DNA of 43,409 nt, from contig CANPXY010000002.1 in NCBI GenBank assembly GCA_947587115.1, forward strand, positions 1 through 43,409, given 5' to 3'. The notes below the pieces were generated by a model. That model saw nothing but the letters and a program-made list of their open reading frames with translations, made no database searches and was not told where the DNA came from. The DNA is from an uncultured Bacilli bacterium. Its GTDB lineage: Bacteria; Bacillota_I; Bacilli_A; RF39; UBA660. The position numbers were made by a program, and so were the translations under genes. Position 1 is the stretch's first letter, and each line of letters begins with the position of its first letter. Positions 8,965 through 33,644 of this stretch are shown one piece after another.

Positions 8965-10533
8965 ATGGTTTTAAAACGACCTTATGCGTTTTTGATCAAA
9001 CACTTTCAAAAGATCCATGCTTTATTGTTGATCTTGTGCGGATATATTTTCTATAAAAATCAGGCCTTTTCTTCCTTTGTCTCTGATTATATTCTATTGG
9101 GTACTTACGATGAAGCACTGGACAGTGTGCATCACTATGCAAGTATCTTATTCTATATCGTTGTAATAGCGGTGATTTTGATCAGTTTGTTGATCATCTA
9201 TCTTTTACGTTATAAAAAGAAACCTTATCGTTTTTATGTTTTTCTAATTTTAGAATATGTGGCTTTATTGTTGGTATTTCTTTATGGTGCCAATTATTTC
9301 CAAGGATTACAAAATGGAGCAACATCAATTACGACCATCATGGCGATTCGTGATTTGCTTTTCATTTTCTCTTTGCCACAGTACTTGATCTTTATCTTGT
9401 TGATCTTGCGGGTTTTGGGAGTGGATCTTAAAAAGTTTGGATTTCAGGAAGATCGTGCTTTTTTAGGCTTAGAAGAGAAAGATAACGAAGAATTTGAATT
9501 CCAAGTTCAGGTGGATAAAGATCGATATAAAAGAGCGATCAAAAAACAACTTCGTTTTTTAAAATATTTTTATCAGGAGCATCAGACGGTCGTCCGAGTT
9601 ATTGGACTAGTGCTTTTTATAGCAATCTTAGGTTATAGCATTTATTTTGTTCAAGTGAAAAATAAAATCTATCATCTTGGGGAACGTTTCGTCTCTAATG
9701 GATATTCGATCCAAGTAAATGCTGCCTATGTGACCGATAAAGATTTTAAAGGGGATTTCGTCTTAGATTCCTCTTCCAAAAGAAAATTTGTCATTTTGGA
9801 TGTTTCTGTTACCAACGAGTCCGTTTCAAGAACGATGACGATCGATCGTTTTCACCTACAAAATGGCGTTTACAGTACTGTCAATACCCAGAAATATAAC
9901 CAGCGTTTTCAAGATTTAGGGACTCCTTATGAAAAAGCAGAACTTCCATCTGGTTCGACACAGACGTTTTTATTGATCTATCAAGTTCCGTCTTCTTTAG
10001 AGAATGATCATTTTGTACTCACTTATCAAGACATTCAAGGACGCTCTAACTTAAGTTTGAAGAAAGTGAAACTTAAGGTTACGGATTTAGGAGCCATTAC
10101 CCTTGATCAAGAGAAAAAAATGGGGGAAGATTTGACGGTCACTTTCCCTGATCGAAAGAAGAAGATCGTTCGCTTTGTAAAATCTGAATTGGTAGCTAGT
10201 AAACCTTATTATTTTGAACGTTGTCTTGAGCAGGGATGCTCTATTGTAGAAGAGGAATTGACGGCTCCAAGTGGCAATATGTTATTGGTTTTGTCGTTTG
10301 TGAGTGATGATTTTACGACGAGCGAATTGGTTGACTTTTCTAAGAAGTATGGTACAATTAATTATATAGATAATAAGGGCGAAGAAGTAGAGCTTCCGAT
10401 CAATCTTGCGACGAAGCGAAGTTACCAAGGAAATTACTTGTATTTGCTAGTGAAGTCAGACTTGATGGAGCAGCAACAAGTTGATTTAGAGTGGACGGTT
10501 CGTAATCGAAAATTGATCTATCACTTAAAATAG
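8965..10533 (+). CDS. polytopic membrane protein with a C-terminal extracellular DUF4352-like beta-sandwich region
   Basis: AGGAGGG RBS. About 5 N-terminal TM helices, a charged loop, a further TM helix, then FVILDVSVTNES...FLLIYQVP, the pattern I associate with DUF4352-type Ig-like domains. First gene of the long + strand locus. Confidence 0.6.
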   Translation: MVLKRPYAFLIKHFQKIHALLLILCGYIFYKNQAFSSFVSDYILLGTYDEALDSVHHYASILFYIVVIAVILISLLIIYLLRYKKKPYRFYVFLILEYVALLLVFLYGANYFQGLQNGATSITTIMAIRDLLFIFSLPQYLIFILLILRVLGVDLKKFGFQEDRAFLGLEEKDNEEFEFQVQVDKDRYKRAIKKQLRFLKYFYQEHQTVVRVIGLVLFIAILGYSIYFVQVKNKIYHLGERFVSNGYSIQVNAAYVTDKDFKGDFVLDSSSKRKFVILDVSVTNESVSRTMTIDRFHLQNGVYSTVNTQKYNQRFQDLGTPYEKAELPSGSTQTFLLIYQVPSSLENDHFVLTYQDIQGRSNLSLKKVKLKVTDLGAITLDQEKKMGEDLTVTFPDRKKKIVRFVKSELVASKPYYFERCLEQGCSIVEEELTAPSGNMLLVLSFVSDDFTTSELVDFSKKYGTINYIDNKGEEVELPINLATKRSYQGNYLYLLVKSDLMEQQQVDLEWTVRNRKLIYHLK

Positions 10534-10544
10534 GAGCGATGACG

Positions 10545-12386
10545 ATGAAAGAAAAGAAGAGAAAAAAGTTTATATTGATTTTTGGCATCTTAGTTGTTGT
10601 CGTTCTTTTTGCGTGTCTTCTTTGGTTCTTCTGGTTAGAAAAACTTTATCTTTTCCATAAAGAGGAAGGGCGGCTTTTAGAAGCAGGAGAGAAATATTTC
10701 GATCTCAATTATCGATTGCTTCCAGTACAAGATGGTGAAGTTGCCAGTGTCAGTTTACAAAAGCTCTACGATGAAAAATGGACGACCGCGTTCTATGTAC
10801 CTAAAAAGAATACCTTGTGTGATGCGAAAGATAGTTGGGTAAAAGTGCGTCGTGAAGATGGGAAAAATGTTTACTATACTTATTTAAAATGTGGAAAATT
10901 CGAATCTAGAGTGGATCATGAAGGACCAGTTATTACGCTCAATGGGGATGATGAAATTTATATTGATCGAGGCGATACTTATGAAGAACTTGGTATTTCA
11001 TCTTTAGTCGATCGAGTCGATGGTAAACTTTCAAACAGTGAAGTTCGCATTCAACAAGAGGTCGATACTTCTAAGGTGGGACGTTATACCGTCACTTACA
11101 GCGCCTATGATCATTTGCGAAATAAATCTGAAAAACAGCGAACCGTCGTCGTTTTAGATATGTTAAATACCGTCATGAAATCGAAGATGGGAGATCTTAA
11201 TTATTTTAAAGGCGATCAAAGTGATAATTATGTATTGTTTTCCGGAATGCTCTTTCAGGTAGTGGGGGTCAATCAAGACAACACGACCAAACTGATCAGT
11301 GCTTATACCGTTGGTAATATGAACAATAATAGTTCGGACACGTCTTTTGATCATAGTGATCTAAAGAAATGGCTCAACAATTATTTTTATAATCATCTAA
11401 GTGAACGCAGCAAGGAATATGTGGTTTCCAAGAGCAGTTTTTGTGATGATGTCATTACGAATGAAGATCGCGAGAAAACAACTTGTGACAAACAGACGGA
11501 TCCGATGGCCGTAGGGCTTCTTTCCGTACAAGAATTCAACCTTAGTTTAGGAGATAACGGCGTTGAAAGTTATCTACAATCTCCTTACATGTTCTGGCTT
11601 TCTAATCGCAAAGATCAAGAGGCCGGTTGGGTAAACCGCAGTGATTTCAACATTACGGGAGAGAGCAATTTCTTAAGCTTCACTTCCAATACTCTTTTGG
11701 GTGTTCGTCCTGTTCTCAATGTGAAAGCAGATTTGGGTATTATTGATGGAAGTGGAACAGAGAATGATCCTTATATATTGAACGATTATCAAGAGGCTCG
11801 ATTACAATCAAAATTGAATACACGCTATAGTGGAGAATACTTGATGTATTCTGGCTATCTATGGCGTATCATGGAAGTTACAGCGGATGGAGAAACGAAG
11901 GTCATCATGGATCGCACGTTAACTAGCAACGATGAGGAAATTCAAATTCGTTATGAAAATGCCGATCATAGTGCTATTTACAATCCAAAACAACAAGGAA
12001 ACATCGCCTATCAAATCGTGAATGAACTTAATCGCTATGTCAATACCAATCGCTTTGTCAGTCATGAGATCAAAGTACCGGTCTATGAGAAATGGGCTAC
12101 ATACGAAACTTCCAGAATCGATAAATACAAAGTCAAAATTTCTTCACCGGATGCTTATGAATTATTCACAGCAAAGAATACCAATAATGATTACAGCAGC
12201 TATTGGTTTATGAACTCGACAAAGATGGAAGGTATGAAATATGTGATGGCCCCAGCAGGCAGTCCTTATACGCAGAGTGTTCCAGAAGATTTGAAAGCAG
12301 GAGTTAAGTTGGTTGCGTATTTCGATCGCGATGTCAAAATTACGAGTGGTAAGGGTTTTAGAGATGATCCTTATTATGTAAGGTAG
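10545..12386 (+). CDS. signal-anchored surface protein: pseudopilin-like N-module, Ig-like (DUF5011-type) domain, two DUF6273-like repeats
   Basis: AGGAG at 10532..10536 fits ATG 10545 better than ATG 10539. GPVITLNGDDEIYIDRGDTYEELGISSLVDRVDG...VGRYTVTYSAYD is a DUF5011/HYR-style Ig repeat. Two repeats end in GVRPVLNVKADL...GTENDPYIL and GFRDDPYYV. Paralogous to 34060..35154. Confidence 0.65.
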   Translation: MKEKKRKKFILIFGILVVVVLFACLLWFFWLEKLYLFHKEEGRLLEAGEKYFDLNYRLLPVQDGEVASVSLQKLYDEKWTTAFYVPKKNTLCDAKDSWVKVRREDGKNVYYTYLKCGKFESRVDHEGPVITLNGDDEIYIDRGDTYEELGISSLVDRVDGKLSNSEVRIQQEVDTSKVGRYTVTYSAYDHLRNKSEKQRTVVVLDMLNTVMKSKMGDLNYFKGDQSDNYVLFSGMLFQVVGVNQDNTTKLISAYTVGNMNNNSSDTSFDHSDLKKWLNNYFYNHLSERSKEYVVSKSSFCDDVITNEDREKTTCDKQTDPMAVGLLSVQEFNLSLGDNGVESYLQSPYMFWLSNRKDQEAGWVNRSDFNITGESNFLSFTSNTLLGVRPVLNVKADLGIIDGSGTENDPYILNDYQEARLQSKLNTRYSGEYLMYSGYLWRIMEVTADGETKVIMDRTLTSNDEEIQIRYENADHSAIYNPKQQGNIAYQIVNELNRYVNTNRFVSHEIKVPVYEKWATYETSRIDKYKVKISSPDAYELFTAKNTNNDYSSYWFMNSTKMEGMKYVMAPAGSPYTQSVPEDLKAGVKLVAYFDRDVKITSGKGFRDDPYYVR

Positions 12387-12391: not shown

Positions 12392-13132
12392 ATGCGCAAG
12401 GTCTATTATGTGATTTTACTTCTCTTGGGATTGACTTTCGTTGGATGGCTCTTTAAGGATGCTCTATTTCCTTATTACAAAGTGGAAAGTCGAAGTGTCC
12501 AACAGCAAGAGTACAGTGCACCGGTGGTCGGTTGGATTCGCGTACAGGGGACGAACATCGATTATCCGATTGTTGTTGGAAACGATGCAGGCGGATCGCT
12601 TGCAGATTATACTTGGATGCAGTATGATCCATCGGATACGCTTCCCAATCGACTTGCCATCTTTGGACATAACATTCAAAACGTCTCTAGTCATCCTTTG
12701 ATTTCCAATCCAGAACATAGTCGTTTTGAACAGTTGATGGGGTTTGTCTATACTGAATTTGCAAAAAAGAATCAGTACATTCAAGTCTCATTTGGAGAAA
12801 AAGATTATCTTTACCGCATCTATGCGGTAGAGTTTGTCAAGGAAAACGATGCTGGAGCAAGTCTTCCTAAACAGGATTTAAAAGATTATATTCAATCTGC
12901 AAAAGAGCAAAGTTACTATGATTATGATGTCAAAGTGAGTGAAGATGATCCGCTGCTTACTTTGATTACTTGTACGAGGTTTTTTGGACCGACGACAGAA
13001 TATGAATTTAAAGTAGAAGCACGACTTGTACGGCCCCATGAAAAAGTTGTTCAAGGGGCACTCAAGGAAACAGATGCTTATCAAGAAATTAAAAAGATAT
13101 TGAAAGAAGGTGAAAGCGATGCGGAAGTTTAG
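12392..13132 (+). CDS. srtB: class B sortase
   Basis: N-terminal TM helix, VGWIRVQGTNIDYPIVVG (class B hallmark), catalytic His in AIFGHN, catalytic Cys in LLTLITCT, and Arg in VEARLVR. Confidence 0.8.
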   Translation: MRKVYYVILLLLGLTFVGWLFKDALFPYYKVESRSVQQQEYSAPVVGWIRVQGTNIDYPIVVGNDAGGSLADYTWMQYDPSDTLPNRLAIFGHNIQNVSSHPLISNPEHSRFEQLMGFVYTEFAKKNQYIQVSFGEKDYLYRIYAVEFVKENDAGASLPKQDLKDYIQSAKEQSYYDYDVKVSEDDPLLTLITCTRFFGPTTEYEFKVEARLVRPHEKVVQGALKETDAYQEIKKILKEGESDAEV

Positions 13133-15617
13133 TAAGAAACAGGGACTATGGTTCATCGGCGTTTTGGCTCTAGCGGTATTGGTCGTTGGACTTTTTGTAC
13201 AAGCCGAGGATGGACCTACAACGAATGATCTTGAAAACTTTGGTTCTTCGCAGAGCTCTGATTCTTGTTTTACAAGTGATGAGGATCGGAATGCTTATGT
13301 AAATGCAAGTAAAATCACCTACCAAGAGCCAACTTCAGAAAATGGTTGGGTTGCAAAACTTAGTAGTCTTCCAGCCAATGCAAAAGTTACGATCTATCTT
13401 AATGATACTGTTACGAACTACGAAAATACTTCCTCTTCTGATATTTGGGATTTATCGGTTGCTGTCAAAGATATTGTCTTCGATAGTATGATCGATTTGG
13501 AAATAAAAGTTTATCCGAATTATATTGATTTGACGGGTGAATGTGCCAAGGCGGGAAGATCTTATTATACGATGACGGATACAGATGAGCGAGGATCTTA
13601 TACTACGACACTGGATGAAGCTTCGATTCAAAAACAACAGGAACTTGAGAATAAATGGAATTTTATTCCTAGTGCCGGATCTTCTTTCAGTGCGGATGCG
13701 AACGCTGATCCTAATCAAACTCAAAATTTATCTTGTGATTATAATCCAGAAATCGCTACAAATAAAAAGCAAGTGGTAGGAACCAAAACTGAAAAAATTA
13801 ATTCTTATTGTAGTAGAGAATGTAAAGAAACGGTTTCTGTCACTTATGGACCTCCAGTAGTAACGCAAGCTGGTATGGGGGTTGAATATGAAGTTACCGT
13901 AACTTCTAAATTGGAGTGTCAGGCAGTAAAGACGGCTAGTTATCCACAAATTTCAGCACCAAAAGTCTGTGTACCAAGACCAGTTTGTAATGGTGGTCAT
14001 TGGGAAGATAAAAATACTGAAGCCGCTGGTCCGTCCGCACAATTTGATGCTTGTGTATTGTCTTGTGATGGTGGAAATTATTCACAGGAATGTATTGCTT
14101 CTTGTTATCAACAAACTTATCAAGAGGATGATATGGCATCTACAGCGGTACCTTCTTCTTTCTCTACCGTCGTGCCGGTATACAAACAGTATGATTACCG
14201 TGATGGTGTAACGAGAACGGGAGATCCGTTAGGATATTACACAGGAAGTGGCAATAATTTAAAATGGAACAGCAGTCAAAGTGGCTGTGGAACGAGCGAT
14301 GTCCCTTATGGTGAATGTGCAGGATACTATTATTATTCGACTCCAGCACGAACTGCTTGGAGCAATGCTCGATTGCATCAGAAGGTAACAAATGATGTTT
14401 CACGTCGTCATAAATATTATTTCTTTGATACGAATGGTATTTTACGTAGTTATACTTATGACTATAGTGTAGGCGCTGACGTCTATTGTAATGCCAATTG
14501 TCAATGGGTTGGATGTAGTGGAACTCCTGGCAAAGATTATTATCTTACCGAACAACAAGCCAATGAGAAATATCAACAGGATCTAGCCAATGCCGAAGCA
14601 ATCATTCGGGAATGTAGTGAAGAGCCTACGGTTAAAGAAGATACTGCAGTCTATACAGTATCTGTAGAAAATACTCCAGACAACAATCTAACTTTCAGTA
14701 CCAGTTTGGCTAGTAAAGATTATAAAGCCGGAATGGAAGAAGACGTCGATGGAACGAAGATTTATCGCTTTCCGGAAGCTCGCATCGACGATGTTACAGG
14801 GGAAGTAGAATATGGAAAAACTGATAATAAGACCGAATATAAAGCTGGAGGAAATCGGTTCTATACGAGTTTGTTATCAGAAGATACGAATACGCCTTGG
14901 TACAACTTAAAAACAGGGCAAATCGATTTGCCAGAATTTAATGAATTGACAGAATGTAAAGAAGGGCAAGATCGAACTTGTTCGGAAATTGATTACAACA
15001 TCGACGCTAAAATTAAGAATTATGGATATTTAGATTGGGATTTTGATATTGCTTGTTTCTATGCGTTAGAGAACGACGAAGATGATTGTGTTCCTGGCAC
15101 AGAAGGGTGTGATGAGGATCCTGAAAATCCAGGTCCAAACGATGACGATCAACAAGATCCAAAATATCTTCAATTTATCTTCCGTCCAATTTCTTTGAAT
15201 GATGTGTTCCCGGCGAGTTATGAAGCACCTTTGGGACGTGCGCCTCGTTGGAATTGGAGTGCAGGGGCAATCAATACGACCAATCGTAACTATCAGATCG
15301 ATCCAACAGCTCTAACAGAAAAGATCGAAAAAGATAACTATGAAATTTATAATGACGATCAGGAACTCGATTATGAATTCTATATTGATCGTCAGACGAT
15401 CAACTATATTCGTTCTTACAACCAGGAACGAGGAGATTATTTGAATTACGATACGACGAATTGTCGTACGAAAAATGGCATGACGATCTGTCAGAGCGCT
15501 CTTTTAGATACTTTAAGGACGCGAACTAGTTTCGGTGGAAATGCAGTTTTACAACGACGAGGAGTCACGGGATGTAACAATCAACGTGGTGAATCATGCG
15601 ATACATATAGCAAGTAG
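13119..15617 (+). CDS. large secreted cysteine-rich protein (about 27 Cys by hand count), no recognisable family
   Basis: GAAGGTGA RBS before ATG 13119 (the ORF opens at GTG 13110), overlapping the sortase stop. Signal peptide WFIGVLALAVLVVGLFVQAED. Cys residues are mostly in close pairs (CSREC, CVPRPVC, CVLSC, CIASC, CNANCQWVGC). No C-terminal LPXTG/NPXTN sorting signal or TM anchor. Confidence 0.65.
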   Translation: MRKFSKKQGLWFIGVLALAVLVVGLFVQAEDGPTTNDLENFGSSQSSDSCFTSDEDRNAYVNASKITYQEPTSENGWVAKLSSLPANAKVTIYLNDTVTNYENTSSSDIWDLSVAVKDIVFDSMIDLEIKVYPNYIDLTGECAKAGRSYYTMTDTDERGSYTTTLDEASIQKQQELENKWNFIPSAGSSFSADANADPNQTQNLSCDYNPEIATNKKQVVGTKTEKINSYCSRECKETVSVTYGPPVVTQAGMGVEYEVTVTSKLECQAVKTASYPQISAPKVCVPRPVCNGGHWEDKNTEAAGPSAQFDACVLSCDGGNYSQECIASCYQQTYQEDDMASTAVPSSFSTVVPVYKQYDYRDGVTRTGDPLGYYTGSGNNLKWNSSQSGCGTSDVPYGECAGYYYYSTPARTAWSNARLHQKVTNDVSRRHKYYFFDTNGILRSYTYDYSVGADVYCNANCQWVGCSGTPGKDYYLTEQQANEKYQQDLANAEAIIRECSEEPTVKEDTAVYTVSVENTPDNNLTFSTSLASKDYKAGMEEDVDGTKIYRFPEARIDDVTGEVEYGKTDNKTEYKAGGNRFYTSLLSEDTNTPWYNLKTGQIDLPEFNELTECKEGQDRTCSEIDYNIDAKIKNYGYLDWDFDIACFYALENDEDDCVPGTEGCDEDPENPGPNDDDQQDPKYLQFIFRPISLNDVFPASYEAPLGRAPRWNWSAGAINTTNRNYQIDPTALTEKIEKDNYEIYNDDQELDYEFYIDRQTINYIRSYNQERGDYLNYDTTNCRTKNGMTICQSALLDTLRTRTSFGGNAVLQRRGVTGCNNQRGESCDTYSK

Positions 15618-15629: not shown

Positions 15630-16097
15630 ATGAGTAAAGGTGTTTTAGCAGCAGGAATTATTTCTTTGGGAATCTTAGCTTTTGCGGTTGTCAATATTAT
15701 TTCTAATTATTTCTCTGGTAATGAACTCGATTATTACTTGTTGAAAGAGACAACCGAAGCAGCGATGACGGATGCGGTCGACATAGGGTTTTATCGATTG
15801 ACCGGACAACTTCGAATGGACAAAGAAAAATTTGCTGAAAGTTTTGTACGAAGATTTTCTCAATCTGTGAATCAAGATCGTAATTATCGTATTCGCATGT
15901 ACGACATCAATGAAACTCCACCCAAAGTCAGCGTGCAGGTCGATTCGACTACCAGCGTCACCTTTAACAGTGAAAGCTTGGGTATTCGCAATCAAATCGA
16001 TGCTATTTTGGAAACAAAGTATGACGAAAATCGTCTGATTGAAGAATTAATGAAAGAAGGGAAGTTAGATTATGAGCAACTTAATAGTAGGAATTAA
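15630..16097 (+). CDS. small TM-anchored protein, possible TadE/TadF-type pseudopilin
   Basis: GAGGAGG RBS. N-terminus MSKGVLAAGIISLGILAFAVVNII followed by a soluble domain of about 120 aa. Sits directly upstream of, and overlaps, the CpaB-like gene. The functional call rests on context only. Confidence 0.4.
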   Translation: MSKGVLAAGIISLGILAFAVVNIISNYFSGNELDYYLLKETTEAAMTDAVDIGFYRLTGQLRMDKEKFAESFVRRFSQSVNQDRNYRIRMYDINETPPKVSVQVDSTTSVTFNSESLGIRNQIDAILETKYDENRLIEELMKEGKLDYEQLNSRN

Positions 16098-19698: not shown

Positions 19699-19700
19699 TA

Positions 19701-19728
19701 AAAAGAAGCAAAAAATTGCTTCTTTTTT
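19701..19728 (+). terminator. rho-independent terminator after the tadC-like gene
   Basis: AGAAGCAA-AAAA-TTGCTTCT (19704..19723) extended by A-T pairs, followed by TTTTT. Confidence 0.7.
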
Positions 19729-21552: not shown

Positions 21553-21581
21553 TTGACATTTCTTTAAAAAAAAGATATTAT
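21553..21581 (+). promoter_or_regulatory. sigma-70-like promoter of the T4SS module
   Basis: TTGACA (21553..21558), 17-nt spacer, TATTAT (21576..21581), then a GTGAGGT RBS and the ATG at 21608. The -35 box is one arm of an 8-bp inverted repeat (AATGTCAA at 21521..21528, TTGACATT at 21553..21560). Confidence 0.6.
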
Positions 21582-21985: not shown

Positions 21986-22033
21986 ATTCTCTGCTATACT
22001 TAATGTAGATTAGTATATCGAGGAGTGAATGGT

Positions 22034-28246: not shown

Positions 28247-30466
28247 TTGCAAGTGGCATATCATGCAAATAGAGATGGTCAAAGACAATATGATCCTGAA
28301 GAACAACCTCAGAAATCAAAAAAAGAGCAGAATAGAGAAAATACAAAATCGCTAGCTAAAGATGCAGGTGCTGTTGCACTCCAAGGCATGGGTGTACCAG
28401 GACCTCTAGCGGGAAAAGCTGCTGAAAAAGCAGCGAAAAATCCATTGGTAAATCATGCACTTAATAAAGTTAGTGATAAATTAAATAAAAATCCACTTGT
28501 ATCCGCTGCCCTCAATAAAGTTGCCAATTCTCCGGCAAGAAATGCCGCCAAAGGGGCCATAGGCTCTAAAAATGGTGATCCGGGATCGACGAAGGATTCT
28601 GGTGAAAACAATAAGAATTCTAATAGCACCGAAAATCAAGGAGAAACGCAGAGTCAAGGTTCTAAATTAGGAAAGCTAGGATTAGGTAAAAATCCTTTTT
28701 CTTCAAATTCTAAAGCAGATGGACAAGCGGGAGCTGAATCGCAAGGCTCTTTTGAAGGTATGGTTAAATTTGCAAAAACGATGAAAAAACTTGCTCCTAT
28801 ATTAGGATTTTTAGGCTCTTTAGCATTACCTATTTTTGGTATTATGATTATATTGGGTGCTATTGGATCTTTTTTTCCAATGTTTGGAACGGATAAATCT
28901 TATGATCAAGGTGGAGTTGGAGGAATCGAATATGTAACAGATTCAGAAGAGGAACTTAATTTTTATGATCGCATTGATACTGTCAGAAAGGAATATGAAG
29001 ATAAGGGTGCTACTTATAAAGCTGAATATATTTCTGGTACTTATTTCATCATGAATCTTCATGATCCGGAGTACACTTTTGATGACATGAGTGAATCAGA
29101 TATTCGTACGCTTTCAGAGTTGATGTTTAAAAAAAGTAAAATTGTAATTACTTGTGAGAAGGATGAGAATGATTTTGTGACGGTAGAAGGCACTAAAGAA
29201 GCAGAGCCAGTTTGTCCGGATGGTTATACACTCAATCCTGATCGAACCGCTGAATCTTATATTTTTGATGAAGAGAGTTTTAAGACTGATCTTGCTAAAT
29301 TTATGCAAAGTAAGTTAAATTTAACTGAAGACAGTGAAGCTGCTGAAGTTGCGGATGAGGTCTATGAGTATATTGCAGATTATAATAGCCTTACTGTTCG
29401 TGAGGAAACTTCTGTTAAAGGAAATGGCAATCTTTCTTATTGGTGGCCTGTTGGTAGCAATGAGACAACGGAAGTAAATGGCGTTTTATTTGCAACCGGT
29501 GCTCCAGCAAGCACTCACATAACGAGTGATTTTGGTGGACGATATGATCCGTTTAGTGGCAAATGGGTCGATGCCCATGGAGCAATTGATATCGCAGGTG
29601 GAGGGATCATTCATGGAAGCACAAGTGCAATCGCAGCTAAAGATGGTATTGTTGAAAAGGTCTCAACTGGTTGTATATCTTTTGGTAGTACATCTTGCGG
29701 TGGTGGTTTTGGTAATTATGTTGTTTTAAAACATAGTGATGGCAACTATACGATTTATGCACATCTTCAACAAAATACGATTACTGTAAATAAGGGTGAT
29801 ACTGTTGCTCAAGGTCAGGTTTTGGGGCGTATAGGTAGTAGCGGTCGATCTACAAACACACACTTGCACTTTGAAGTTCGTGTAGGACAGAATATAAATT
29901 CCGCACATCAAGATCCATTGAACTTTGTGGATCCAGAAAATCCTCGTCCTACTTCTATGGGAAGTTCTAATTTTGTAGAGATGCTTTACAGCTGGGAAGG
30001 AACCGGGCCAGCTGATACGAACAATTATTATGTCTATCAAGATAGTTCTGGAAATTTGACGGTCGGTCATGGTCTTTTGCTTCGCTATAATATTGATCGT
30101 CTATCCGCCTTCGGTGTAAATGCAAGTGCACTAAAAGCAGGTGATCCGGTACCAAGAGCAGCTGCTGAGGGAGTTGAGCAGCAAATCTTGACTGAAAAAC
30201 GTAGCAGTATCACAACACTATTATCTAGAGAAGGTATTACTCTTGAAGAGTATCAAATTGATGCTTTGGTGATTCGTATGTATAATGTAGGAAATATTAA
30301 TGGTTTTGCAGAGAATTATAAAACGTATGGAAATACGCAAGAATTGTATGATCATTATATGTCACAGCCAACTACAAGCGGGGGAAAAGTTTTAGAGGGA
30401 TTGCGTCGTAGAAGAGCTGCGGAATGGACGTTGTTCTCTACGGGAGTATATCAAAAGAATGGTTAA
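28247..30466 (+). CDS. bifunctional cell-wall hydrolase: disordered N-region, TM helix, M23 (LytM) peptidase, GH24 phage-type lysozyme
   Basis: M23 motifs HGAIDIAG, GNYVVLKHSDGNYTIYAHLQ and SSGRSTNTHLHFEVR. GH24 motifs SWEGTG...YQDSSGNLTVGHG, QIDALVIRMYNVG and EGLRRRRAAEWTLF. Start is TTG 28247 or GTG 28253 (AGGTGG RBS at 28238..28243). Confidence 0.8.
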   Translation: MQVAYHANRDGQRQYDPEEQPQKSKKEQNRENTKSLAKDAGAVALQGMGVPGPLAGKAAEKAAKNPLVNHALNKVSDKLNKNPLVSAALNKVANSPARNAAKGAIGSKNGDPGSTKDSGENNKNSNSTENQGETQSQGSKLGKLGLGKNPFSSNSKADGQAGAESQGSFEGMVKFAKTMKKLAPILGFLGSLALPIFGIMIILGAIGSFFPMFGTDKSYDQGGVGGIEYVTDSEEELNFYDRIDTVRKEYEDKGATYKAEYISGTYFIMNLHDPEYTFDDMSESDIRTLSELMFKKSKIVITCEKDENDFVTVEGTKEAEPVCPDGYTLNPDRTAESYIFDEESFKTDLAKFMQSKLNLTEDSEAAEVADEVYEYIADYNSLTVREETSVKGNGNLSYWWPVGSNETTEVNGVLFATGAPASTHITSDFGGRYDPFSGKWVDAHGAIDIAGGGIIHGSTSAIAAKDGIVEKVSTGCISFGSTSCGGGFGNYVVLKHSDGNYTIYAHLQQNTITVNKGDTVAQGQVLGRIGSSGRSTNTHLHFEVRVGQNINSAHQDPLNFVDPENPRPTSMGSSNFVEMLYSWEGTGPADTNNYYVYQDSSGNLTVGHGLLLRYNIDRLSAFGVNASALKAGDPVPRAAAEGVEQQILTEKRSSITTLLSREGITLEEYQIDALVIRMYNVGNINGFAENYKTYGNTQELYDHYMSQPTTSGGKVLEGLRRRRAAEWTLFSTGVYQKNG

Positions 30467-30475
30467 GGAGGATCT

Positions 30476-31006
30476 ATGAAGGACGATAAAAAACGAAGTA
30501 TTTTAATTATTATTATACTTGTAATTTTACTGGGTGGCATGATCTTCTTTTTATTCGTGAATCGTGGAAATCAAGATCCTGCTAAAATTACGAATAAAGT
30601 TCACATGGTAACAGATCATAGTCGCTTTTTTACAGTAGTATCTTGTGTTTCTAGTTTTATTTCTTATCAATCTTCACAAGATACCAATAATCTATTATTG
30701 CTTTTAAATGACAATTATAAAAATAACAATCATATTACAGCAAGTAATCTTTATCAATATATTGGCACATTAGAAAGTGATTATGAATTTTCAGCGAACC
30801 GAATGTATCAAGAACAAGTTAATGATGATGTGATGAAATACTATGTTTCTGGAGTTTTGAATCCTGCGATGATGTATGATGATCCTGAGGATTTATATCA
30901 TGCACCACAAAAAAAGTATGATGTAATAGTCTATTTAAATTTAAGACAGAGTACCTTTTCTATTGAACCTTATGATGGATCTATTTTTGAAGGAGGTGCC
31001 TCATGA
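30476..31006 (+). CDS. small TM-anchored protein, possible VirB8-like (NTF2-like) T4SS component
   Basis: AAGGAGG RBS, one N-terminal TM helix and an extracytoplasmic domain of about 145 aa. The call rests on context and architecture only. Confidence 0.35.
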   Translation: MKDDKKRSILIIIILVILLGGMIFFLFVNRGNQDPAKITNKVHMVTDHSRFFTVVSCVSSFISYQSSQDTNNLLLLLNDNYKNNNHITASNLYQYIGTLESDYEFSANRMYQEQVNDDVMKYYVSGVLNPAMMYDDPEDLYHAPQKKYDVIVYLNLRQSTFSIEPYDGSIFEGGAS

Positions 31007-31491
31007 GTTTTTGGGAAAAGCATAAAGGTTACATTATCATTATTTCTACTCTTGTATTTATTGGAATTGTATGTTATATAATAAGTCTAGTGACAAAAGA
31101 AAAAGTGATTACTTATGTTCCGGATGGTGAAGAAACTAATTTTTTACAAAATTACAAAGTGAATCAAGTTATTCCAGTCTATGTCACAGAAGAACAGATT
31201 GTCAGCATTTATTTTAATGATTATATCAATAAAATATTGTATAATAGAGAAGAAGCTTATGCACTTTTAGAGAAAAAATTTAAAAAGGACCAATATAAAA
31301 CCTTTGAAGAATATGATCAAGCGATGAATAAGCTTCAAGAAAAAGCAAGTTCTTTTTCAATGAGCAATTACACTGTAAAAAAAGGTAAATATATAACGAC
31401 TTATCGTGTGCAAGATAATAATGATAATCTATATATATTTAATGTCACAGCAGTGATGGTTTATACTGTTCAATTTACAACCGCAAAATAA
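31003..31491 (+). CDS. small TM-anchored protein, possible VirB8-like (NTF2-like) T4SS component
   Basis: ATGA overlap with the previous gene, AAGGAGGTG RBS, one TM helix and a domain of about 125 aa. The call rests on context and architecture only. Confidence 0.35.
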   Translation: MSFWEKHKGYIIIISTLVFIGIVCYIISLVTKEKVITYVPDGEETNFLQNYKVNQVIPVYVTEEQIVSIYFNDYINKILYNREEAYALLEKKFKKDQYKTFEEYDQAMNKLQEKASSFSMSNYTVKKGKYITTYRVQDNNDNLYIFNVTAVMVYTVQFTTAK

Positions 31492-31502
31492 GAGGTGAAT
31501 CT

Positions 31503-33644
31503 ATGAAATTAAAATTTAGAGCAGAACCACAAGATATTTTAATTTTTGTATTGTTTGCAATCTTTTTGTTTTATTTAGTAGCAATTGGGGTCTTAAACTT
31601 TTCTACTTTGGCTGTTGAAGGACATTTCTATGGGCTCAATCCTTTAGAAGCGTTTACACCAAGGTATCTTATGGCTACGATCGTATTTTATTTAATAGCA
31701 ATGGGAGGGCTCTTTATCAGTGTTGGTTCTTATTTCTTTGAGCGAGAAAAAGGGGTAGGAATCACAACGGAGAAAAAAGATAAGGGATATTCTCGTTGGG
31801 CAAAAGAAAAGGAAATTAAACAATCAAAAAACGTTGAGAGAATTTTAATTACTGATAAAAAAACGGAAGCCGCTGGAACGCCACTTATTTATAAAGGAAA
31901 TGAAATTTGGGTTGATAATGGTGAAAATCACACTTTGGTGATTGGTGCGACTGGTTCTGGTAAGACACAGACCATCGTTTTACCGACTGTAACCGTACTT
32001 GCCAAAAAAGGTGAGTCCATGATCATCACGGACCCTAAAGGTGAGATCTATGAAAAAACATCGGAGATGTTGCGGGATAAAGGATATCAGATTTTACTTT
32101 TGAATTTCCGAGATCCTCAAGAAGGAAATGCTTGGAATCCTCTTTCATTGCCATATGAAATGTATAAAAATGGCAATCAAGATAAAGCGATCGAGTTGTT
32201 GGATGACTTAGCAATGAATATTTTGTATGATGAAAACAATAGCAATGCGGATCCCTTTTGGGAGAAGACGTCCGCAGACTATTTTTCAGGTATTGCGCTC
32301 GGTTTATTTGAGGATGCTAAGCCCGAAGAAATTAACATTAACAGTATCAGTTTGATGACGACGGTTGGGGAAGAAAAGTTTGGTGGATCTACCTATGTAA
32401 AAGAGTATTTTAACGGAAAAGATCCATCCAGTGCCGCTGCGATCAATGCTTCTAGTACGATCATGGCTCCAAGTGATACGAAGGGAAGTATTTTAGCGGT
32501 ATTTAAACAGAAAATTAAGTTGTTCGCTTCTCGTGAAAATTTGTCCGAGATGTTGTCCCATACCGATATTGATTTAGAGACCATTGGTGAAAAACCTACG
32601 GCTCTTTATATCGTTATTCAGGATGAGAAAACTACCTATCATTCGTTGGTTACAATTTTGTTAAAACAAGTGTATGAAACATTGATTGCCAATGCCCAAA
32701 AGCATGGTGGAAAGCTTCCTGTTCGAACGAATTTCTTATTGGATGAGTTTGCCAATATGCCACCACTTAAAAGTGTAACGACGATGATTACGGCTGCGCG
32801 AAGTCGTCAGATTCGTTTTACGATGATCATTCAGAACTTTGCTCAGTTGGATCAAGTATATGGTAAAGAAAATGCCGAGACACTTCGTGGTAACTGTGGA
32901 AACTTGATCTATTTGATTACAACCGAACTCAAAGCTTTGGAAGAAATTAGTAAGATGTGTGGTGAAGTGAAATCGAAGAAAGATGATAAAACGGCTTCTA
33001 CACCACTGGTCACGATCAGTGACTTGCAGCACATGAAAGAAAACGAAGTTATCATCATGCGTTTACGTCAACAACCATTCCGGACGAAATTTACACCTTA
33101 TTGGAAGATCGATTGGGGTAAGAAATATCCTACGGCAGAATTTCCACATCGAGAAAAAGTACCGGTAGCTACGTTTGACATTCGTGAATTTGTCAAAGAG
33201 AAAAAACGTCAACAGTTGTTTCAAATGATGGATAATAACAATCCAGACGCAGCTCCAATGGGTGGAGGTCCTAGTGATGGTTTTCCACCATTTACGCCGC
33301 CTAGTCTGTTTAATCCACCACCAGTCAACAATGCTCCAAAGGAAAATGATCAATTCAATGTTGATGATTTGGTAAGAAAGATCGATGCTAAAATAGCAGA
33401 ACTGGAGGAAGAAGAAAAGAGAAATCAGGAAGAGGCGAAGGCCAAGGGAATTTCCGCTCCGACGGATTCTTTGCCACCGAAAGCGGATCCTCTTCCACCG
33501 GTTCAAACACCACCGAAGCCATTAGAGAATCCAACTTTGAAGCCGAATGAAGACAAAGCAATTGTTCATACAGAGAATCTTAATGATGCTCCATTGTTAG
33601 AAGAAGATGATGATCAATTCTTTGATGATTTCTTTGATGATTAG
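31503..33644 (+). CDS. virD4: VirD4/TraG-type type IV coupling protein with a Pro-rich C-terminal extension and an acidic-aromatic tail
   Basis: Two N-terminal TM helices, Walker A LVIGATGSGKTQT, Walker B NFLLDEFANMP, RSRQIRFTMIIQNFAQL. C-terminus PPFTPPSLFNPPPVNNAP...PPKADPLPPVQTPPKP...LLEEDDDQFFDDFFDD. Confidence 0.85.
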   Translation: MKLKFRAEPQDILIFVLFAIFLFYLVAIGVLNFSTLAVEGHFYGLNPLEAFTPRYLMATIVFYLIAMGGLFISVGSYFFEREKGVGITTEKKDKGYSRWAKEKEIKQSKNVERILITDKKTEAAGTPLIYKGNEIWVDNGENHTLVIGATGSGKTQTIVLPTVTVLAKKGESMIITDPKGEIYEKTSEMLRDKGYQILLLNFRDPQEGNAWNPLSLPYEMYKNGNQDKAIELLDDLAMNILYDENNSNADPFWEKTSADYFSGIALGLFEDAKPEEININSISLMTTVGEEKFGGSTYVKEYFNGKDPSSAAAINASSTIMAPSDTKGSILAVFKQKIKLFASRENLSEMLSHTDIDLETIGEKPTALYIVIQDEKTTYHSLVTILLKQVYETLIANAQKHGGKLPVRTNFLLDEFANMPPLKSVTTMITAARSRQIRFTMIIQNFAQLDQVYGKENAETLRGNCGNLIYLITTELKALEEISKMCGEVKSKKDDKTASTPLVTISDLQHMKENEVIIMRLRQQPFRTKFTPYWKIDWGKKYPTAEFPHREKVPVATFDIREFVKEKKRQQLFQMMDNNNPDAAPMGGGPSDGFPPFTPPSLFNPPPVNNAPKENDQFNVDDLVRKIDAKIAELEEEEKRNQEEAKAKGISAPTDSLPPKADPLPPVQTPPKPLENPTLKPNEDKAIVHTENLNDAPLLEEDDDQFFDDFFDD

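What the first reader, a model, noticed from the sequence alone, without database searches (positions are those of the whole stretch)
8965..33644. Tad-type pilus module and Gram-positive-type T4SS module fused in one co-directional chromosomal locus with no relaxase, integrase or replication gene
Seen in sequence: 22 consecutive + strand genes with overlaps or gaps of a few nt, interrupted only by three short terminator/promoter spacers.

- First part: polytopic membrane protein, Ig/DUF5011-like surface protein, class B sortase and a 27-Cys secreted protein. These are followed by CpaB-like, CpaF/TadA-like ATPase (SGETGSGKT), TadB-like, TadC-like, an Flp-sized pilin candidate, TadE-like and TadZ/CpaE-like genes.
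- Second part: two VirB2-like proteins, VirB6/TrbL-like, VirB3/PrgI-like, split VirB4 (GTSGSGKST, MVDEAH), an M23+GH24 wall hydrolase, two TM-anchored small proteins and a VirD4/TraG-type coupling protein (GATGSGKTQ, LLDEFANMP).
- Every unassigned ORF in the locus has an N-terminal TM or signal segment, so none looks like a cytoplasmic relaxase.
- Both flanks are housekeeping for several kb (U32, trmL, thioredoxin on the left; rhodanese, rmuC, gatCAB on the right).

Established knowledge: Gram-positive conjugative T4SSs normally use surface adhesins rather than pili. A type IV pilus teamed with a T4SS is known from Gram-negative elements (the IncI1 R64 thin pilus, PAPI-1/ICEclc-type islands). 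Tad-like genes are required for natural transformation in Micrococcus luteus. The Helicobacter ComB T4SS imports DNA.

Inference: this may be a monoderm counterpart in which a Tad fibre supplies contact or retraction for a T4SS channel. It could serve an element whose relaxase lies elsewhere, or it could be a domesticated DNA or protein translocation machine. I know of no described system with exactly this composition, but I cannot search.
Basis: partly seen in the sequence, partly recalled or inferred. Interest (0 to 1): 0.85.

Follow-up and report, generated by a model that had tools for sequence, protein, structure and literature searches.

The report
Chromosomal conjugation-type machine with pilus module
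A large group of uncultured gut bacteria with small genomes carries, as a fixed and strongly conserved part of the chromosome, a plasmid-style cell-to-cell transfer machine joined to a pilus-building module, but with no DNA-nicking or mobility genes nearby, so a conjugation apparatus appears to have been kept for the cell's own use.

Summary
The 22 co-directional genes are real.

**T4SS half: firmly supported.**
- VirD4 passes its NCBIfam cut-off.
- The split VirB4, the TrbL/VirB6 protein and the M23+lysozyme hydrolase all have profile support.

**"Tad" half: only partly supported.**
- The ATPase is CpaF-like.
- CpaB scores are sub-threshold.
- The two "TadB/C" proteins have no T2SSF profile hit and only a weak fold match to GspF.
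- The pilins have a conserved Gly leader but no Flp motif.

**Fixed chromosomal locus, not an island.**
- Gene order is kept in about 160 related loci from Bacilli MAGs (RF39-type).
- The modules are adjacent in 98 of 99 informative loci.
- The motors are as constrained as the neighbouring RmuC, and their divergence tracks it.
- There is no relaxase, integrase, tRNA or flanking repeat.

**The composition is not unprecedented.** Bacillus conjugative plasmids pBMB67 and pAW63 carry homologous CpaB-like, ATPase, two polytopic, PrgI, split VirB4 and VirD4 genes, plus a relaxase. pLS20 has a similar gene series.

**Best reading.** This is a domesticated, relaxase-less variant of that Gram-positive conjugation apparatus. 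Its substrate is most likely DNA, but this is untested.

It is a new variant of a known kind, of moderate to high interest.

The parts
8965..10533 (+). First gene of the locus: a polytopic membrane protein (4 predicted TM segments) with a large C-terminal ectodomain. Family unknown.
   Evidence: No Pfam or NCBIfam hit. TM scan. It is always the first gene in the 35 of 35 relatives with enough upstream DNA. 32-41% identity among orthologues.
10539..12386 (+). TM-anchored surface protein with a bacterial Ig-like domain and DUF6273; adhesin candidate.
   Evidence: PF16403 at 1.4e-16 and PF19789 at 5e-8. Fast-evolving, about 40% identity.
12392..13132 (+). Sortase-fold transpeptidase with an intact His-Cys-Arg triad. 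Its substrate is not identified.
   Evidence: PF04203 at 3e-9. TIGR03064 gives 56.8 bits, below its cut-off of 153.75. H93, T-C194-T-R and R211 are invariant in 42 orthologues. No sorting signal was found in any locus protein.
13110..15617 (+). Secreted or TM-anchored Cys-rich protein (27 Cys); candidate tip or surface component.
   Evidence: No family hit. At least 14 Cys are invariant in 29 orthologues at about 30% identity. Orthologue lengths range from 461 to 1121 aa.
15630..16097 (+). DUF5411 protein with a short leader and a hydrophobic N-terminus; minor-pilin-like.
   Evidence: PF17424 at 1e-49. Leader MNKG followed by a hydrophobic stretch. A weak DUF5411 gene sits in the same position in pBMB67 and in L167.
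16072..16878 (+). CpaB/RcpC-like SAF-domain protein.
   Evidence: RcpC 21.7 bits and TIGR03177 24.8 bits, both below their cut-offs. The family HMM hits the annotated SAF protein of pBMB67 at 6e-37 and the RcpC-annotated gene of L163 at 6e-55.
16906..18006 (+). CpaF/TadA-type secretion ATPase (Walker A GETGSGKT).
   Evidence: PF00437 at 100 bits. The nearest solved structures are CpaF at 78 bits, then FlaI and archaeal GspE at about 70, then VirB11 at 57. dN/dS 0.037.
18023..18916 (+). Polytopic membrane protein in the TadB position; platform-protein candidate.
   Evidence: No T2SSF hit by sequence or profile. AF2 model with pLDDT 82. The top Foldseek matches are the EpsF/OutF cytoplasmic domains, with probability 0.96 but E about 1. 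Homologous to a pBMB67 ORF at 1.4e-11.
18916..19698 (+). Second polytopic membrane protein, in the TadC position; a weak paralogue of 18023.
   Evidence: hhalign against the 18023 family gives E 1e-4 and probability 56%. Homologous to a pBMB67 ORF at 9e-11.
19700..19727 (+). Terminator-like hairpin in the 147-nt spacer before the pilin gene.
   Evidence: 12-bp stem. A consensus match only.
19846..20031 (+). 61-aa pilin candidate with the conserved leader MK(A/E)ATG followed by ELN(L/M)TV and about 22 hydrophobic residues.
   Evidence: Alignment of 27 orthologues. No Flp_Fap hit and no EY motif.
20056..20526 (+). Minor-pilin candidate ("TadE-like") with the leader M(K/R)(D/E)AxGG. It is duplicated in many relatives.
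   Evidence: No family hit.
20542..21522 (+). Cytoplasmic protein in the TadZ/CpaE role, with a degenerate P-loop (GIKNVTDHAGSTT).
   Evidence: No Pfam, NCBIfam or PDB hit. The hhalign match to the pBMB67 AAA_31 protein is not significant. It is 47% identical in the reduced variant locus L163.
21553..21581 (+). Promoter-like site in front of the T4SS block.
   Evidence: TTGACA-17-TATTAT, 11 of 12 positions. A consensus match only.
21608..21949 (+). Two-TM hairpin protein (VirB2-like topology) with invariant Cys at both outer ends.
   Evidence: Alignment A8 shows C11 and C108 invariant. No family or PDB hit.
22025..23716 (+). Signal peptide plus a variable 470-aa ectodomain, fused to a C-terminal copy of the same hairpin.
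   Evidence: 43% identity to 21608 over 67 aa, E 5e-18. Orthologues are 122-567 aa, median 188.
23727..25580 (+). VirB6/TrbL-type polytopic channel protein.
   Evidence: PF19597 TrbL_4 at 40.4 bits, above its cut-off of 27. Weak hits to the MMCAP2_0566 and pLS20_p028 families.
25598..25915 (+). VirB3/PrgI-like small membrane protein.
   Evidence: No direct family hit. The family HMM hits the annotated PrgI gene of pBMB67 at 8e-5.
25866..26441 (+). N-terminal part of the split VirB4.
   Evidence: Matches NF045975 positions 101-277 at 3.7e-13. It is a separate ORF in all relatives, and also in pBMB67 and pAW63.
26438..28228 (+). VirB4 ATPase part (Walker A GTSGSGKST, Walker B MVDEAH).
   Evidence: NF045975 at 357 bits (positions 293-891) and NF045971 at 168 bits. 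P-loop_TraG and AAA_10 hits. Mean 87% identity across species; dN/dS 0.031.
28247..30466 (+). TM-anchored cell-wall hydrolase, M23 endopeptidase plus lysozyme (VirB1 role).
   Evidence: PF01551 at 3e-20 and PF00959 at 2e-9.
30476..31006 (+). Small N-terminally anchored protein; VirB8-role candidate, untested.
   Evidence: No family or PDB hit. Other species have different small anchored proteins in this position.
31003..31491 (+). Second small N-terminally anchored protein.
   Evidence: No significant hit.
31503..33644 (+). VirD4 type IV coupling protein with an acidic, Pro-rich C-terminal tail.
   Evidence: PF02534 at 202.6 bits. NF045973 CD1115 family at 308.6 bits, above its cut-off of 250. 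dN/dS 0.073.
33964..35154 (+). TM-anchored DUF6273 protein, related to the C-terminal part of 10539; probable accessory surface component. The true start is probably the internal ATG near 34060.
   Evidence: PF19789 at 7e-7. It is a conserved right-hand neighbour, and in about 12 species it lies inside the T4SS block between the 21608 and 22025 homologues.

Best explanation
The locus is a chromosomally fixed, vertically inherited derivative of a Gram-positive conjugation apparatus. That apparatus is the type found on pAW63, pXO2, pBMB67 and pLS20 plasmids and, for VirB4 and VirB6, on Mycoplasma ICEs. It natively combines a CpaF-type filament module with a VirB4/VirB6/VirD4 channel.

**Proposed working (inferred).**
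1. The CpaF-like ATPase (16906), two platform-like membrane proteins (18023, 18916) and the CpaB-like protein (16072) polymerise the 61-aa pilin (19846) and minor pilins (20056, 15630) into a surface fibre.
2. Fast-evolving surface proteins (10539, 13110, 33964, the ectodomain of 22025) give partner contact. Some may be handled by the dedicated sortase.
3. The M23/lysozyme hydrolase opens the cell wall.
4. VirB3, the split VirB4, VirB6, the hairpin proteins and the small anchored proteins form the membrane channel.
5. VirD4 feeds it substrate.

**Substrate.** I take it to be DNA moved between cells of the lineage. Processing would be by a relaxase encoded elsewhere, or relaxase-independent as I recall for mycoplasma chromosomal transfer.

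**Shown:** composition, homology, conservation and the lack of mobility genes nearby.
**Inferred:** fibre formation, cooperation of the two halves, and the substrate.
For: **T4SS core.**
- VirD4 passes the curated CD1115 cut-off, 308.6 against 250.
- VirB4 scores 357 bits on the Mycoplasma ICE model.
- TrbL_4 scores above its gathering threshold, and the hydrolase has M23 plus lysozyme domains.

**Filament motor.** The nearest solved relative of the ATPase is CpaF.

**Pilin candidates.** Short Gly-containing leaders are conserved.

**Platform candidate.** The best fold matches are the GspF cytoplasmic domains.

**Homology of both halves to one conjugative plasmid.** Family HMMs hit eight pBMB67 genes at E values from 8e-5 to 5e-89. 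pBMB67 has a MobP3 relaxase. pAW63 has the same order in its published table and pLS20 a similar one.

**Fixed chromosomal unit.**
- Adjacency holds in 62 of 63 plus 36 of 36 loci. All five left-hand genes are present in 35 of 35.
- Pairwise identities of TadA, TadB, TadC, VirB4 and VirD4 correlate with the flanking RmuC at r 0.67-0.83.
- dN/dS is 0.03-0.07 for the motors and 0.036 for RmuC.

**No mobility signatures.** No relaxase, integrase or Rep gene, no tRNA and no att-like repeat in the window or in the flanks of relatives.
Against: - No experiment or expression data exist.
- The Tad identity rests mainly on the ATPase. There is no T2SSF, Flp or TadZ profile hit and no prepilin peptidase in the window.
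- The Foldseek E-values are about 1.
- No relaxase was seen within about 10 kb of the locus in any relative, and whole genomes could not be searched. DNA transfer is therefore unproven.
- A retained T4CP fits protein secretion equally well.
- One reduced variant (L163) lacks the ATPase and pilin genes in the 14.5 kb held, yet keeps the CpaB, TadB, TadC, TadZ-like and VirB6-like genes. The filament reading may therefore not hold for every lineage.
Confidence: 0.45

Rival explanations
1. The machine is domesticated as described, but it translocates proteins. Effectors would go into neighbouring bacteria or host cells, or macromolecules would be extracted from them. This would resemble core chromosomal T4SSs of other reduced-genome bacteria.
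For: - VirD4 is retained and strongly constrained, with no relaxase nearby.
- The locus is core and vertically inherited.
- Surface parts evolve fast, as expected for target recognition.
- From my own knowledge, these RF39-type lineages have reduced genomes. A paper read also says so.
Against: - No effector or immunity candidates lie in or beside the locus.
- The closest relatives with a known role are conjugative DNA-transfer systems.
- No secretion signal was identified.
Confidence: 0.27
2. It is a DNA-uptake (competence or nucleotide-scavenging) machine. The fibre would capture DNA and the T4SS channel import it, as in the ComB system of Helicobacter or the Ups/Ced pair of Sulfolobales.
For: - No relaxase is nearby.
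- The locus combines a type IV filament-like module with a T4SS-like module.
- VirB4 gives weak hits to CedD, and VirD4 to CedB and CedD.
- The locus is core in a lineage with reduced genomes.
Against: - As I recall, ComB and Ced work without a VirD4-type coupling protein. Here VirD4 is conserved and passes a conjugation-family cut-off.
- The Ced hits are far below their cut-offs.
- Firmicutes normally use ComG/ComE for uptake, and its presence could not be checked.
Confidence: 0.13
3. The two halves are functionally independent neighbours: an adhesion pilus operon next to a T4SS operon.
For: - A promoter-like site and an 85-nt spacer separate them.
- One relative (L026) has the T4SS block without the Tad-like block upstream.
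Against: - They are adjacent in 98 of 99 informative loci.
- Both halves have homologues on the same conjugative plasmid, and pAW63 has them in one tra region.
- The reduced variant L163 interleaves genes of both halves, with TadZ-like directly followed by VirB6-like.
Confidence: 0.1
4. It is an ordinary ICE or integrated plasmid, or a decaying remnant of one, whose relaxase and integrase lie just outside the window.
For: All recognisable parts belong to conjugation-type families.
Against: - The flanks are housekeeping genes in the window and in relatives.
- There is no tRNA or att-like repeat and no GC break.
- All genes are intact across about 160 loci and under purifying selection. Divergence matches the flanking chromosome.
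Confidence: 0.05

Closest known systems
tra regions of Bacillus cereus-group conjugative plasmids pAW63, pXO2, pBT9727 and pBMB67
   Same: - pBMB67 has homologues of the CpaB-like, CpaF-like ATPase, both polytopic proteins, PrgI, the split VirB4 (N and C parts) and the VirD4 of the CD1115 family, at HMM E values from 8e-5 to 5e-89.
- It also has a weak DUF5411 gene before the CpaB-like gene.
- The pAW63 gene table shows the "VirB11" gene, two membrane proteins and small proteins directly upstream of VirD4 ... 223-aa protein - VirB4 - hydrolase (PMC1196294).
   Different: - The plasmids carry a relaxase (MobP3 in pBMB67), replication and partition genes.
- Identity to the window proteins is only about 29-34%.
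- The five left-hand genes, the hairpin proteins and the M23/lysozyme hydrolase of the window have no detected homologue there.
- In pBMB67 the two blocks are about 9 kb apart and in the opposite order.
pLS20-family conjugation operon of Bacillus subtilis-group plasmids
   Same: - It has the gene series adhesin - 126-aa TM protein - "putative VirB11" - 268-aa and 243-aa membrane proteins - 120-aa and 47-aa TM proteins, followed by VirD4, VirB6, VirB4, VirB8 and VirB1 (PMC8557374).
- The ATPase of a plasmid with the pLS20 gene pattern (L166; my reading) is hit by the family HMM at 2e-56.
- VirB6 gives a weak hit to the pLS20_p028 family.
   Different: - It is a plasmid with a relaxase.
- Only the ATPase is detectably homologous at HMM level.
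- The paper treats the ATPase as VirB11 and states that Gram-positive elements make no conjugative pili.
Mycoplasma integrative conjugative elements (VirB4 of the Mbov_0397 family, MMCAP2_0566)
   Same: - This is the best-scoring NCBIfam model for VirB4 (357 bits against 168 for the next family) and for the VirB6-like protein.
- From my own knowledge, these ICEs lack a recognised relaxase and support chromosomal transfer. I could not check this, because the paper tools failed.
   Different: - The score is below the equivalog cut-off of 590.
- The model is a single 894-position profile, whereas here VirB4 is split.
- There is no DDE transposase and no ICE borders.
- A filament module is not, to my knowledge, part of those ICEs.
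Tad/Flp (type IVc) pilus, for example Caulobacter CpaF
   Same: - CpaF is the nearest solved ATPase.
- There is a CpaB/RcpC-like protein, two small polytopic proteins after the ATPase, a very short pilin and minor pilins.
   Different: - No T2SSF, Flp_Fap, TadE or TadZ profile match.
- No G/XXXXEY motif.
- No prepilin peptidase in the locus.
- No secretin, as expected for a monoderm.
Ups pili plus the Ced DNA-import system of Sulfolobales; the Helicobacter ComB system (from my own knowledge)
   Same: These are chromosomal, relaxase-less, T4SS-derived machines used by the cell itself. In Sulfolobales the machine works together with a type IV pilus.
   Different: As I recall, they have no VirD4-type coupling protein. 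Sequence similarity is marginal (the CedB and CedD hits are far below cut-off). The direction of transport here is unknown.
IncI1 R64 thin pilus and PAPI-1/ICEclc-type islands
   Same: A type IV pilus is teamed with a conjugative T4SS.
   Different: They are diderm systems with type IVb pili and are mobile elements with relaxases. No homology beyond the ATPase superfamilies was seen here.

Membership tests
Gram-positive (FATA-type) conjugative T4SS | VirB4-family ATPase | tested here: met
   NF045975 at 357 bits and NF045971 at 168 bits; P-loop_TraG and AAA_10 hits; Walker A and B motifs intact.
Gram-positive (FATA-type) conjugative T4SS | VirD4-type coupling protein | tested here: met
   PF02534 at 202.6 bits. 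NF045973 at 308.6 bits, above its cut-off of 250.
Gram-positive (FATA-type) conjugative T4SS | VirB6/TrbL polytopic channel protein | tested here: met
   PF19597 at 40.4 bits, above its cut-off of 27.
Gram-positive (FATA-type) conjugative T4SS | Dedicated cell-wall hydrolase | tested here: met
   Peptidase_M23 plus Phage_lysozyme in 28247.
Gram-positive (FATA-type) conjugative T4SS | VirB3/PrgI-like and VirB8-like small membrane proteins | tested here: inconclusive
   The 25598 family HMM hits the PrgI gene of pBMB67 at 8e-5. 30476 and 31003 have no hit in Pfam, NCBIfam or PDB sequences.
Conjugative element (plasmid or ICE) | Relaxase (and oriT) linked to the transfer genes | tested here: not met
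   None among the window ORFs scanned with Pfam or NCBIfam, or among the flank ORFs of relatives that were scanned. The rest of the genome could not be searched.
Conjugative element (plasmid or ICE) | Integrase or transposase, att repeats, tRNA target, or replication genes; strain-variable presence | tested here: not met
   No such genes were found. No tRNA. No bracketing direct repeats. The right flank is conserved, and synteny holds across about 160 loci.
Tad/Flp type IVc pilus | TadA/CpaF secretion ATPase | tested here: met
   T2SSE at 100 bits, above its cut-off of 24.9. CpaF is the nearest solved protein. No NCBIfam equivalog cut-off was reached.
Tad/Flp type IVc pilus | TadB/TadC platform proteins with a T2SSF domain | tested here: inconclusive
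   No PF00482 hit in the proteins, or in 17 distant relatives. No PDB sequence hit. The AF2 model (pLDDT 82) best matches the EpsF/OutF cytoplasmic domains, with probability 0.96, TM 0.56-0.67 and E 0.7-1.4.
Tad/Flp type IVc pilus | Flp pilin with the G/XXXXEY processing motif | tested here: not met
   No Flp_Fap hit. The conserved leader is MK(A/E)ATG then ELNLTV, without EY.
Tad/Flp type IVc pilus | Prepilin peptidase (TadV) | tested here: not met
   None among the window ORFs scanned or in the neighbouring genes of relatives. Elsewhere in the genome this is not testable with these tools.
Tad/Flp type IVc pilus | TadZ/CpaE ParA-like protein and CpaB/RcpC | tested here: inconclusive
   20542 has no profile hit, and its hhalign match to the pBMB67 AAA_31 protein has probability 2.5%. 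16072 scores below cut-off on RcpC and CpaB, but is homologous to annotated SAF and RcpC genes.
Mycoplasma ICE | Equivalog-level VirB4 (Mbov_0397 family) and a DDE transposase | tested here: not met
   357 bits is below the cut-off of 590. No transposase is present in the window.
Class B sortase | Score above the TIGR03064 cut-off, and a cognate sorting signal in a neighbouring substrate | tested here: not met
   56.8 bits is below 153.75. No C-terminal sorting signal was found in the locus proteins. The catalytic His, Cys and Arg are invariant, so it is a sortase of unassigned class.

The most novel reading that the evidence does not exclude
The locus is a lineage-defining cell-to-cell organelle of RF39-type gut Bacilli. 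A conjugation machine with its own type IV filament has been converted into a core device. These reduced-genome bacteria would depend on it, either for routine chromosomal exchange without a relaxase or for docking on other cells and moving macromolecules. It would also be the first evidence that the "VirB11" blocks of Gram-positive conjugative plasmids build a pilus.
Probability: 0.3. Interest if true: 0.85.

Novelty: new variant of a known kind. Interest (0 to 1): 0.62.

Why it matters
**For the biology of these gut bacteria.**
- As I recall, RF39-type Bacilli are common, uncultured gut bacteria with reduced genomes.
- Relatives of this VirB4 turn up in hundreds of assemblies of the one-genome-per-species collection.
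- A conjugation-type machine kept as a core, strongly constrained chromosomal locus gives a concrete handle on how they interact with other cells. The options are genetic exchange, parasitism or host contact.

**For the study of conjugation.**
- Gram-positive conjugation is usually described as pilus-free.
- The same filament-like block sits unrecognised in well-studied plasmids: it is homologous in pBMB67 and similarly ordered in pAW63 and pLS20.
- The hypothesis can therefore be tested in Bacillus, which is genetically tractable.

Tried and rejected
**Searches that gave no hit or no usable result.**
- Profile searches of the TadB-like, TadC-like, TadZ-like, hairpin (21608) and 30476 families against PDB sequences gave no meaningful hit.
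- The first AF2 run for 18023 used a shallow alignment and gave pLDDT 56, which is unusable. A more diverse alignment fixed this.
- The exhaustive profile search for the 18023 family found only 284 relatives. Pfam on 17 full-length ones gave no T2SSF hit.
- An exact-sequence look-up of the window VirB4 found nothing on record.
- hhalign of the TadZ-like and hairpin families against their pBMB67 counterparts was not significant.

**Checks on conservation.**
- The first identity-correlation run gave a spuriously low value for TadA, because orthologues have a variable C-terminal tail. It was redone on well-aligned columns.
- dS is saturated even for the nearest relative, so the dN/dS values are rough.

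**Readings considered and rejected.**
- Ordinary ICE: rejected.
- Thioredoxin gene as a fixed part of the locus: rejected, because the divergent thioredoxin lipoprotein is present in only 6 of 36 relatives.

**Literature.**
- Ten paper-tool calls failed: eight searches and two paper look-ups.
- Statements about Mycoplasma ICEs, Ced/Ups, ComB, Rickettsiales and the GTDB placement in RF39 therefore rest on my own knowledge.
- Searches for RF39 with "type IV secretion" or "pilus" found nothing relevant.

Full report

The window has 22 consecutive + strand ORFs from 8965 to 33644. All junctions are overlaps or gaps of at most 27 nt, except three spacers of 147, 85 and 75 nt. The first spacer holds a 12-bp terminator-like hairpin (19700-19727) in front of the small pilin gene. 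The second holds a near-consensus promoter-like site (21553-21581) in front of the T4SS block. These are consensus matches only. GC content shows no break against the flanks.

**2. Gene assignments: the T4SS half**

The T4SS half is well supported.
- VirD4 (31503): PF02534 at 202.6 bits. It passes the curated NCBIfam cut-off of the CD1115 conjugal coupling-protein family, 308.6 against 250.
- VirB4: two translationally coupled ORFs. 25866-26441 matches model positions 101-277 and 26438-28228 matches positions 293-891 of NF045975, the Mycoplasma ICE VirB4 family. The large part scores 357 bits, below the equivalog cut-off of 590. The next family, CD1110, scores 168 bits.
- 23727: a TrbL_4 protein, above the gathering score.
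- 28247: carries Peptidase_M23 and Phage_lysozyme domains.
- 21608 and the last 70 residues of 22025: paralogous two-TM hairpins (43% identity, E 5e-18). They have no family hit, so "VirB2-like" is a reading of topology.
- 25598: linked to PrgI only through a family HMM (8e-5).
- 30476 and 31003: unassigned.

**3. Gene assignments: the Tad half**

The Tad half is only partly supported.
- ATPase 16906: a T2SSE protein at 100 bits. Its nearest solved relatives are CpaF (78 bits), archaeal GspE and FlaI (about 70) and VirB11 (57).
- CpaB-like 16072: below both curated cut-offs. It is, however, clearly homologous to genes annotated SAF or RcpC elsewhere.
- The two polytopic proteins 18023 and 18916:
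  - They have no T2SSF hit.
  - A profile search of 1.84 billion representatives found only 284 relatives. None of the 17 full-length ones tested has T2SSF.
  - An AF2 model built on a diverse alignment (pLDDT 82) has the cytoplasmic domains of the T2SS platform proteins EpsF and OutF as its best PDB matches. Probability is 0.96 and TM 0.56-0.67, but E is 0.7-1.4. This is weak support.
- Pilin candidates: 19846 has a conserved leader MK(A/E)ATG followed by ELN(L/M)TV and about 22 hydrophobic residues. 20056 has M(K/R)(D/E)AxGG and 15630 (DUF5411) has MNKG. This looks like prepilin architecture, but it is not the Flp motif.
- 20542: no profile hit.

**4. Gene assignments: the left-hand genes**

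- The sortase has an invariant His-Cys-Arg triad. It is not an SrtB equivalog, and no sorting signal was found in the locus.
- 13110 keeps at least 14 invariant Cys at about 30% identity.

**5. Where it occurs and how it is inherited**

- Close homologues of the 596-aa VirB4 part are very numerous. The best 120 protein clusters are 83-100% identical and 594-598 aa long.
- In the one-genome-per-species collection, 510 pattern-matched stretches encode a relative. The best 80 come from 80 assemblies titled uncultured Bacilli, Tenericutes or Erysipelotrichaceae, "Mycoplasma sp. CAG:877", Candidatus Onthousia and Candidatus Faecimonas.
- NCBI lists the last two as Bacilli incertae sedis. I recall them as GTDB order RF39.
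- Synteny:
  - 62 of 63 VirB4-centred loci have the Tad-like block directly upstream. The exception is L026.
  - 36 of 36 TadA-centred metagenome loci have the T4SS block downstream.
  - 35 of 35 have all five left-hand genes in the same order.
- The right flank (DUF6273 protein, rhodanese, VTT, RmuC) is also conserved. The left flank varies and includes GreA, BipA and others.
- Across 33 species plus the window, pairwise identities of TadA, the two polytopic proteins, VirB4 and VirD4 correlate with those of the flanking RmuC and with each other (r 0.67-0.83). Mean identities are 0.82, 0.76, 0.74, 0.87 and 0.76, against 0.80 for RmuC.
- Against the nearest relative, dN/dS is 0.03-0.07 for the motors and 0.036 for RmuC. 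It is 0.2-0.6 for the surface-exposed parts. dS is saturated.
- This is the signature of a vertically inherited, functional, core locus whose outer parts diversify.

**6. Mobility genes**

- Among the window ORFs scanned, none is a relaxase, integrase, transposase or replication protein.
- There is no tRNA gene and no direct repeat bracketing the locus.
- Representatives of the larger unmatched ORF families in the flanks of the relatives are housekeeping or unknown proteins. They include a class I aminoacyl-tRNA synthetase, BipA, NAPRTase, a P-type ATPase, a histidine kinase and GreA. None is a relaxase.
- Whole genomes could not be searched, so a relaxase elsewhere is not excluded.

**7. Relatives on mobile elements**

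- The best plasmid matches of VirB4 (about 29% identity, E 1e-80) are Bacillus thuringiensis conjugative plasmids.
- pBMB67 has two relevant blocks:
  - MobP3 relaxase - VirD4 (CD1115) - small protein - TrbL - PrgI - 227-aa protein - DUF87/VirB4.
  - About 9 kb downstream: an 851-aa protein - weak DUF5411 - SAF/RcpC - AAA_31 - T2SSE ATPase - two hypothetical membrane proteins - small protein - DUF4320.
- HMMs built from the RF39-type orthologues hit eight of these genes, including both polytopic proteins (1.4e-11 and 9e-11) and both VirB4 parts.
- The published pAW63 table shows the same series as one tra region, including a 223-aa protein in front of VirB4 (PMC1196294).
- The pLS20 family has adhesin - 126-aa - "putative VirB11" - 268-aa - 243-aa - 120-aa - 47-aa proteins ahead of VirD4, VirB6, VirB4, VirB8 and VirB1. 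The authors state that Gram-positive elements do not form conjugative pili (PMC8557374).
- So the pairing of a CpaF-type block with a Gram-positive T4SS is already present in described plasmids, although it is not interpreted there as a pilus module.
- Two more distant chromosomal or metagenomic variants were seen:
  - L167 has DUF5411 - CpaB-like - ATPase - two polytopic proteins - 52-aa - 135-aa proteins.
  - L163 lies next to ribosomal protein genes. It has RcpC - TadB-like - TadC-like - a 47%-identical homologue of 20542 - a VirB6-like protein, with no ATPase or pilin in the 14.5 kb held.

**8. How it most likely works**

*Shown.* A complete-looking set of conjugation-type channel parts and a CpaF-type filament-like set are inherited together as a core chromosomal unit under purifying selection, without nearby mobility genes.

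*Inferred.* The ATPase, platform-like proteins and CpaB-like protein assemble the small pilins into a fibre. Variable surface proteins mediate contact. The hydrolase opens the wall. The VirB3/B4/B6 set with the hairpin proteins forms the channel, and VirD4 delivers the substrate.

*Substrate.*
- I favour DNA moved between cells (confidence about 0.45 for the whole statement), for two reasons. All relatives with a known role are DNA-transfer systems. The best VirB4 and VirB6 models are those of Mycoplasma ICEs, which, as I recall, lack a recognised relaxase yet drive chromosomal transfer.
- Protein translocation (0.27) fits a retained coupling protein and a core locus in a reduced genome equally well.
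- DNA uptake (0.13) is less likely because VirD4 is kept.
- Independent neighbours (0.10) and an ordinary ICE (0.05) are contradicted by the synteny and plasmid comparisons.

**9. Novelty**

- The kind of machine is known from plasmids.
- What is new is its fixation as a relaxase-less core chromosomal locus across a large uncultured gut lineage, together with lineage-specific additions: the polytopic first gene, an Ig/DUF6273 protein, a sortase, a Cys-rich protein and Cys-capped hairpin proteins.
- Two literature searches for RF39 with "type IV secretion" or "pilus" found nothing relevant. Later searches failed, so prior description elsewhere cannot be excluded.
- I rate it a new variant of a known kind, with interest 0.62.

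Noticed in passing
window 21608-21949 and 23500-23716: The two-TM hairpin protein has invariant Cys near both extracytoplasmic ends (C11 and C108, in a CW motif) in 25 orthologues. A disulfide could close the hairpin, which would be reminiscent of cyclised VirB2/TrbC pilins. The C-terminus of 22025 is a paralogue of this hairpin.
   Followed up: partly
window 8462-8923 (- strand) and 7312-7842 (+): Two thioredoxin-fold genes lie just upstream of the locus. One is a divergent lipoprotein thioredoxin with a CPAC motif and weak matches to DUF6568 and to F-plasmid TraF. The other is a PedC/BrcD-like DUF6568 protein. A PedC-like gene also sits directly upstream of the reduced variant locus L163. 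The divergent thioredoxin is present in only 6 of 36 relatives, so the link is partial.
   Followed up: yes
window 13110-15617: The Cys-rich protein keeps at least 14 invariant Cys across 29 orthologues that are only about 30% identical and 461-1121 aa long. This is unusual for an extracellular protein of a gut anaerobe.
   Followed up: partly
window 12392-13132: The sortase has an invariant catalytic triad, but no protein in the locus has a recognisable C-terminal sorting signal. Its substrate is unexplained.
   Followed up: partly
window 16906-18006; L001-L160: The ATPase of the window is 366 aa long. Most orthologues carry a poorly conserved C-terminal extension (median length 480 aa, maximum 603).
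   Followed up: partly
window 33964-35154; L005, L011, L014, L015, L019, L035, L044, L048, L073-L075, L147, L148: The DUF6273 gene is the right-hand neighbour in most genomes. In about a dozen it lies inside the T4SS block, between the two hairpin genes. This suggests it belongs to the system, so the locus may extend beyond 33644.
   Followed up: partly
L086 and L092 (1-1700); many loci at the 20056 position: Local duplications occur: an extra pair of Cys-rich and DUF5411 genes upstream of the first gene in two loci, and two tandem TadE-like genes in many loci.
   Followed up: no
L163 9209-14539 (also L164, L165): A reduced variant lies next to ribosomal protein genes. It has RcpC-like, TadB-like, TadC-like, a 47%-identical homologue of 20542 and a VirB6-like gene. 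There is no ATPase, pilin or hairpin genes between them.
   Followed up: partly
L026 1-10000: This is the only one of 63 VirB4-centred loci in which the T4SS block is not preceded by the Tad-like block. An amine oxidase and other genes lie there instead. It could be a rearrangement or a misassembly.
   Followed up: partly
window 38520-38746: A T-box leader (127.8 bits) lies upstream of gatCAB.
   Followed up: no
window 1668-3605: A clostripain-family (C11) peptidase with an N-terminal TM segment lies in the far left flank. It sits among two unassigned TM-anchored proteins (526-1653 and 3624-4340).
   Followed up: no
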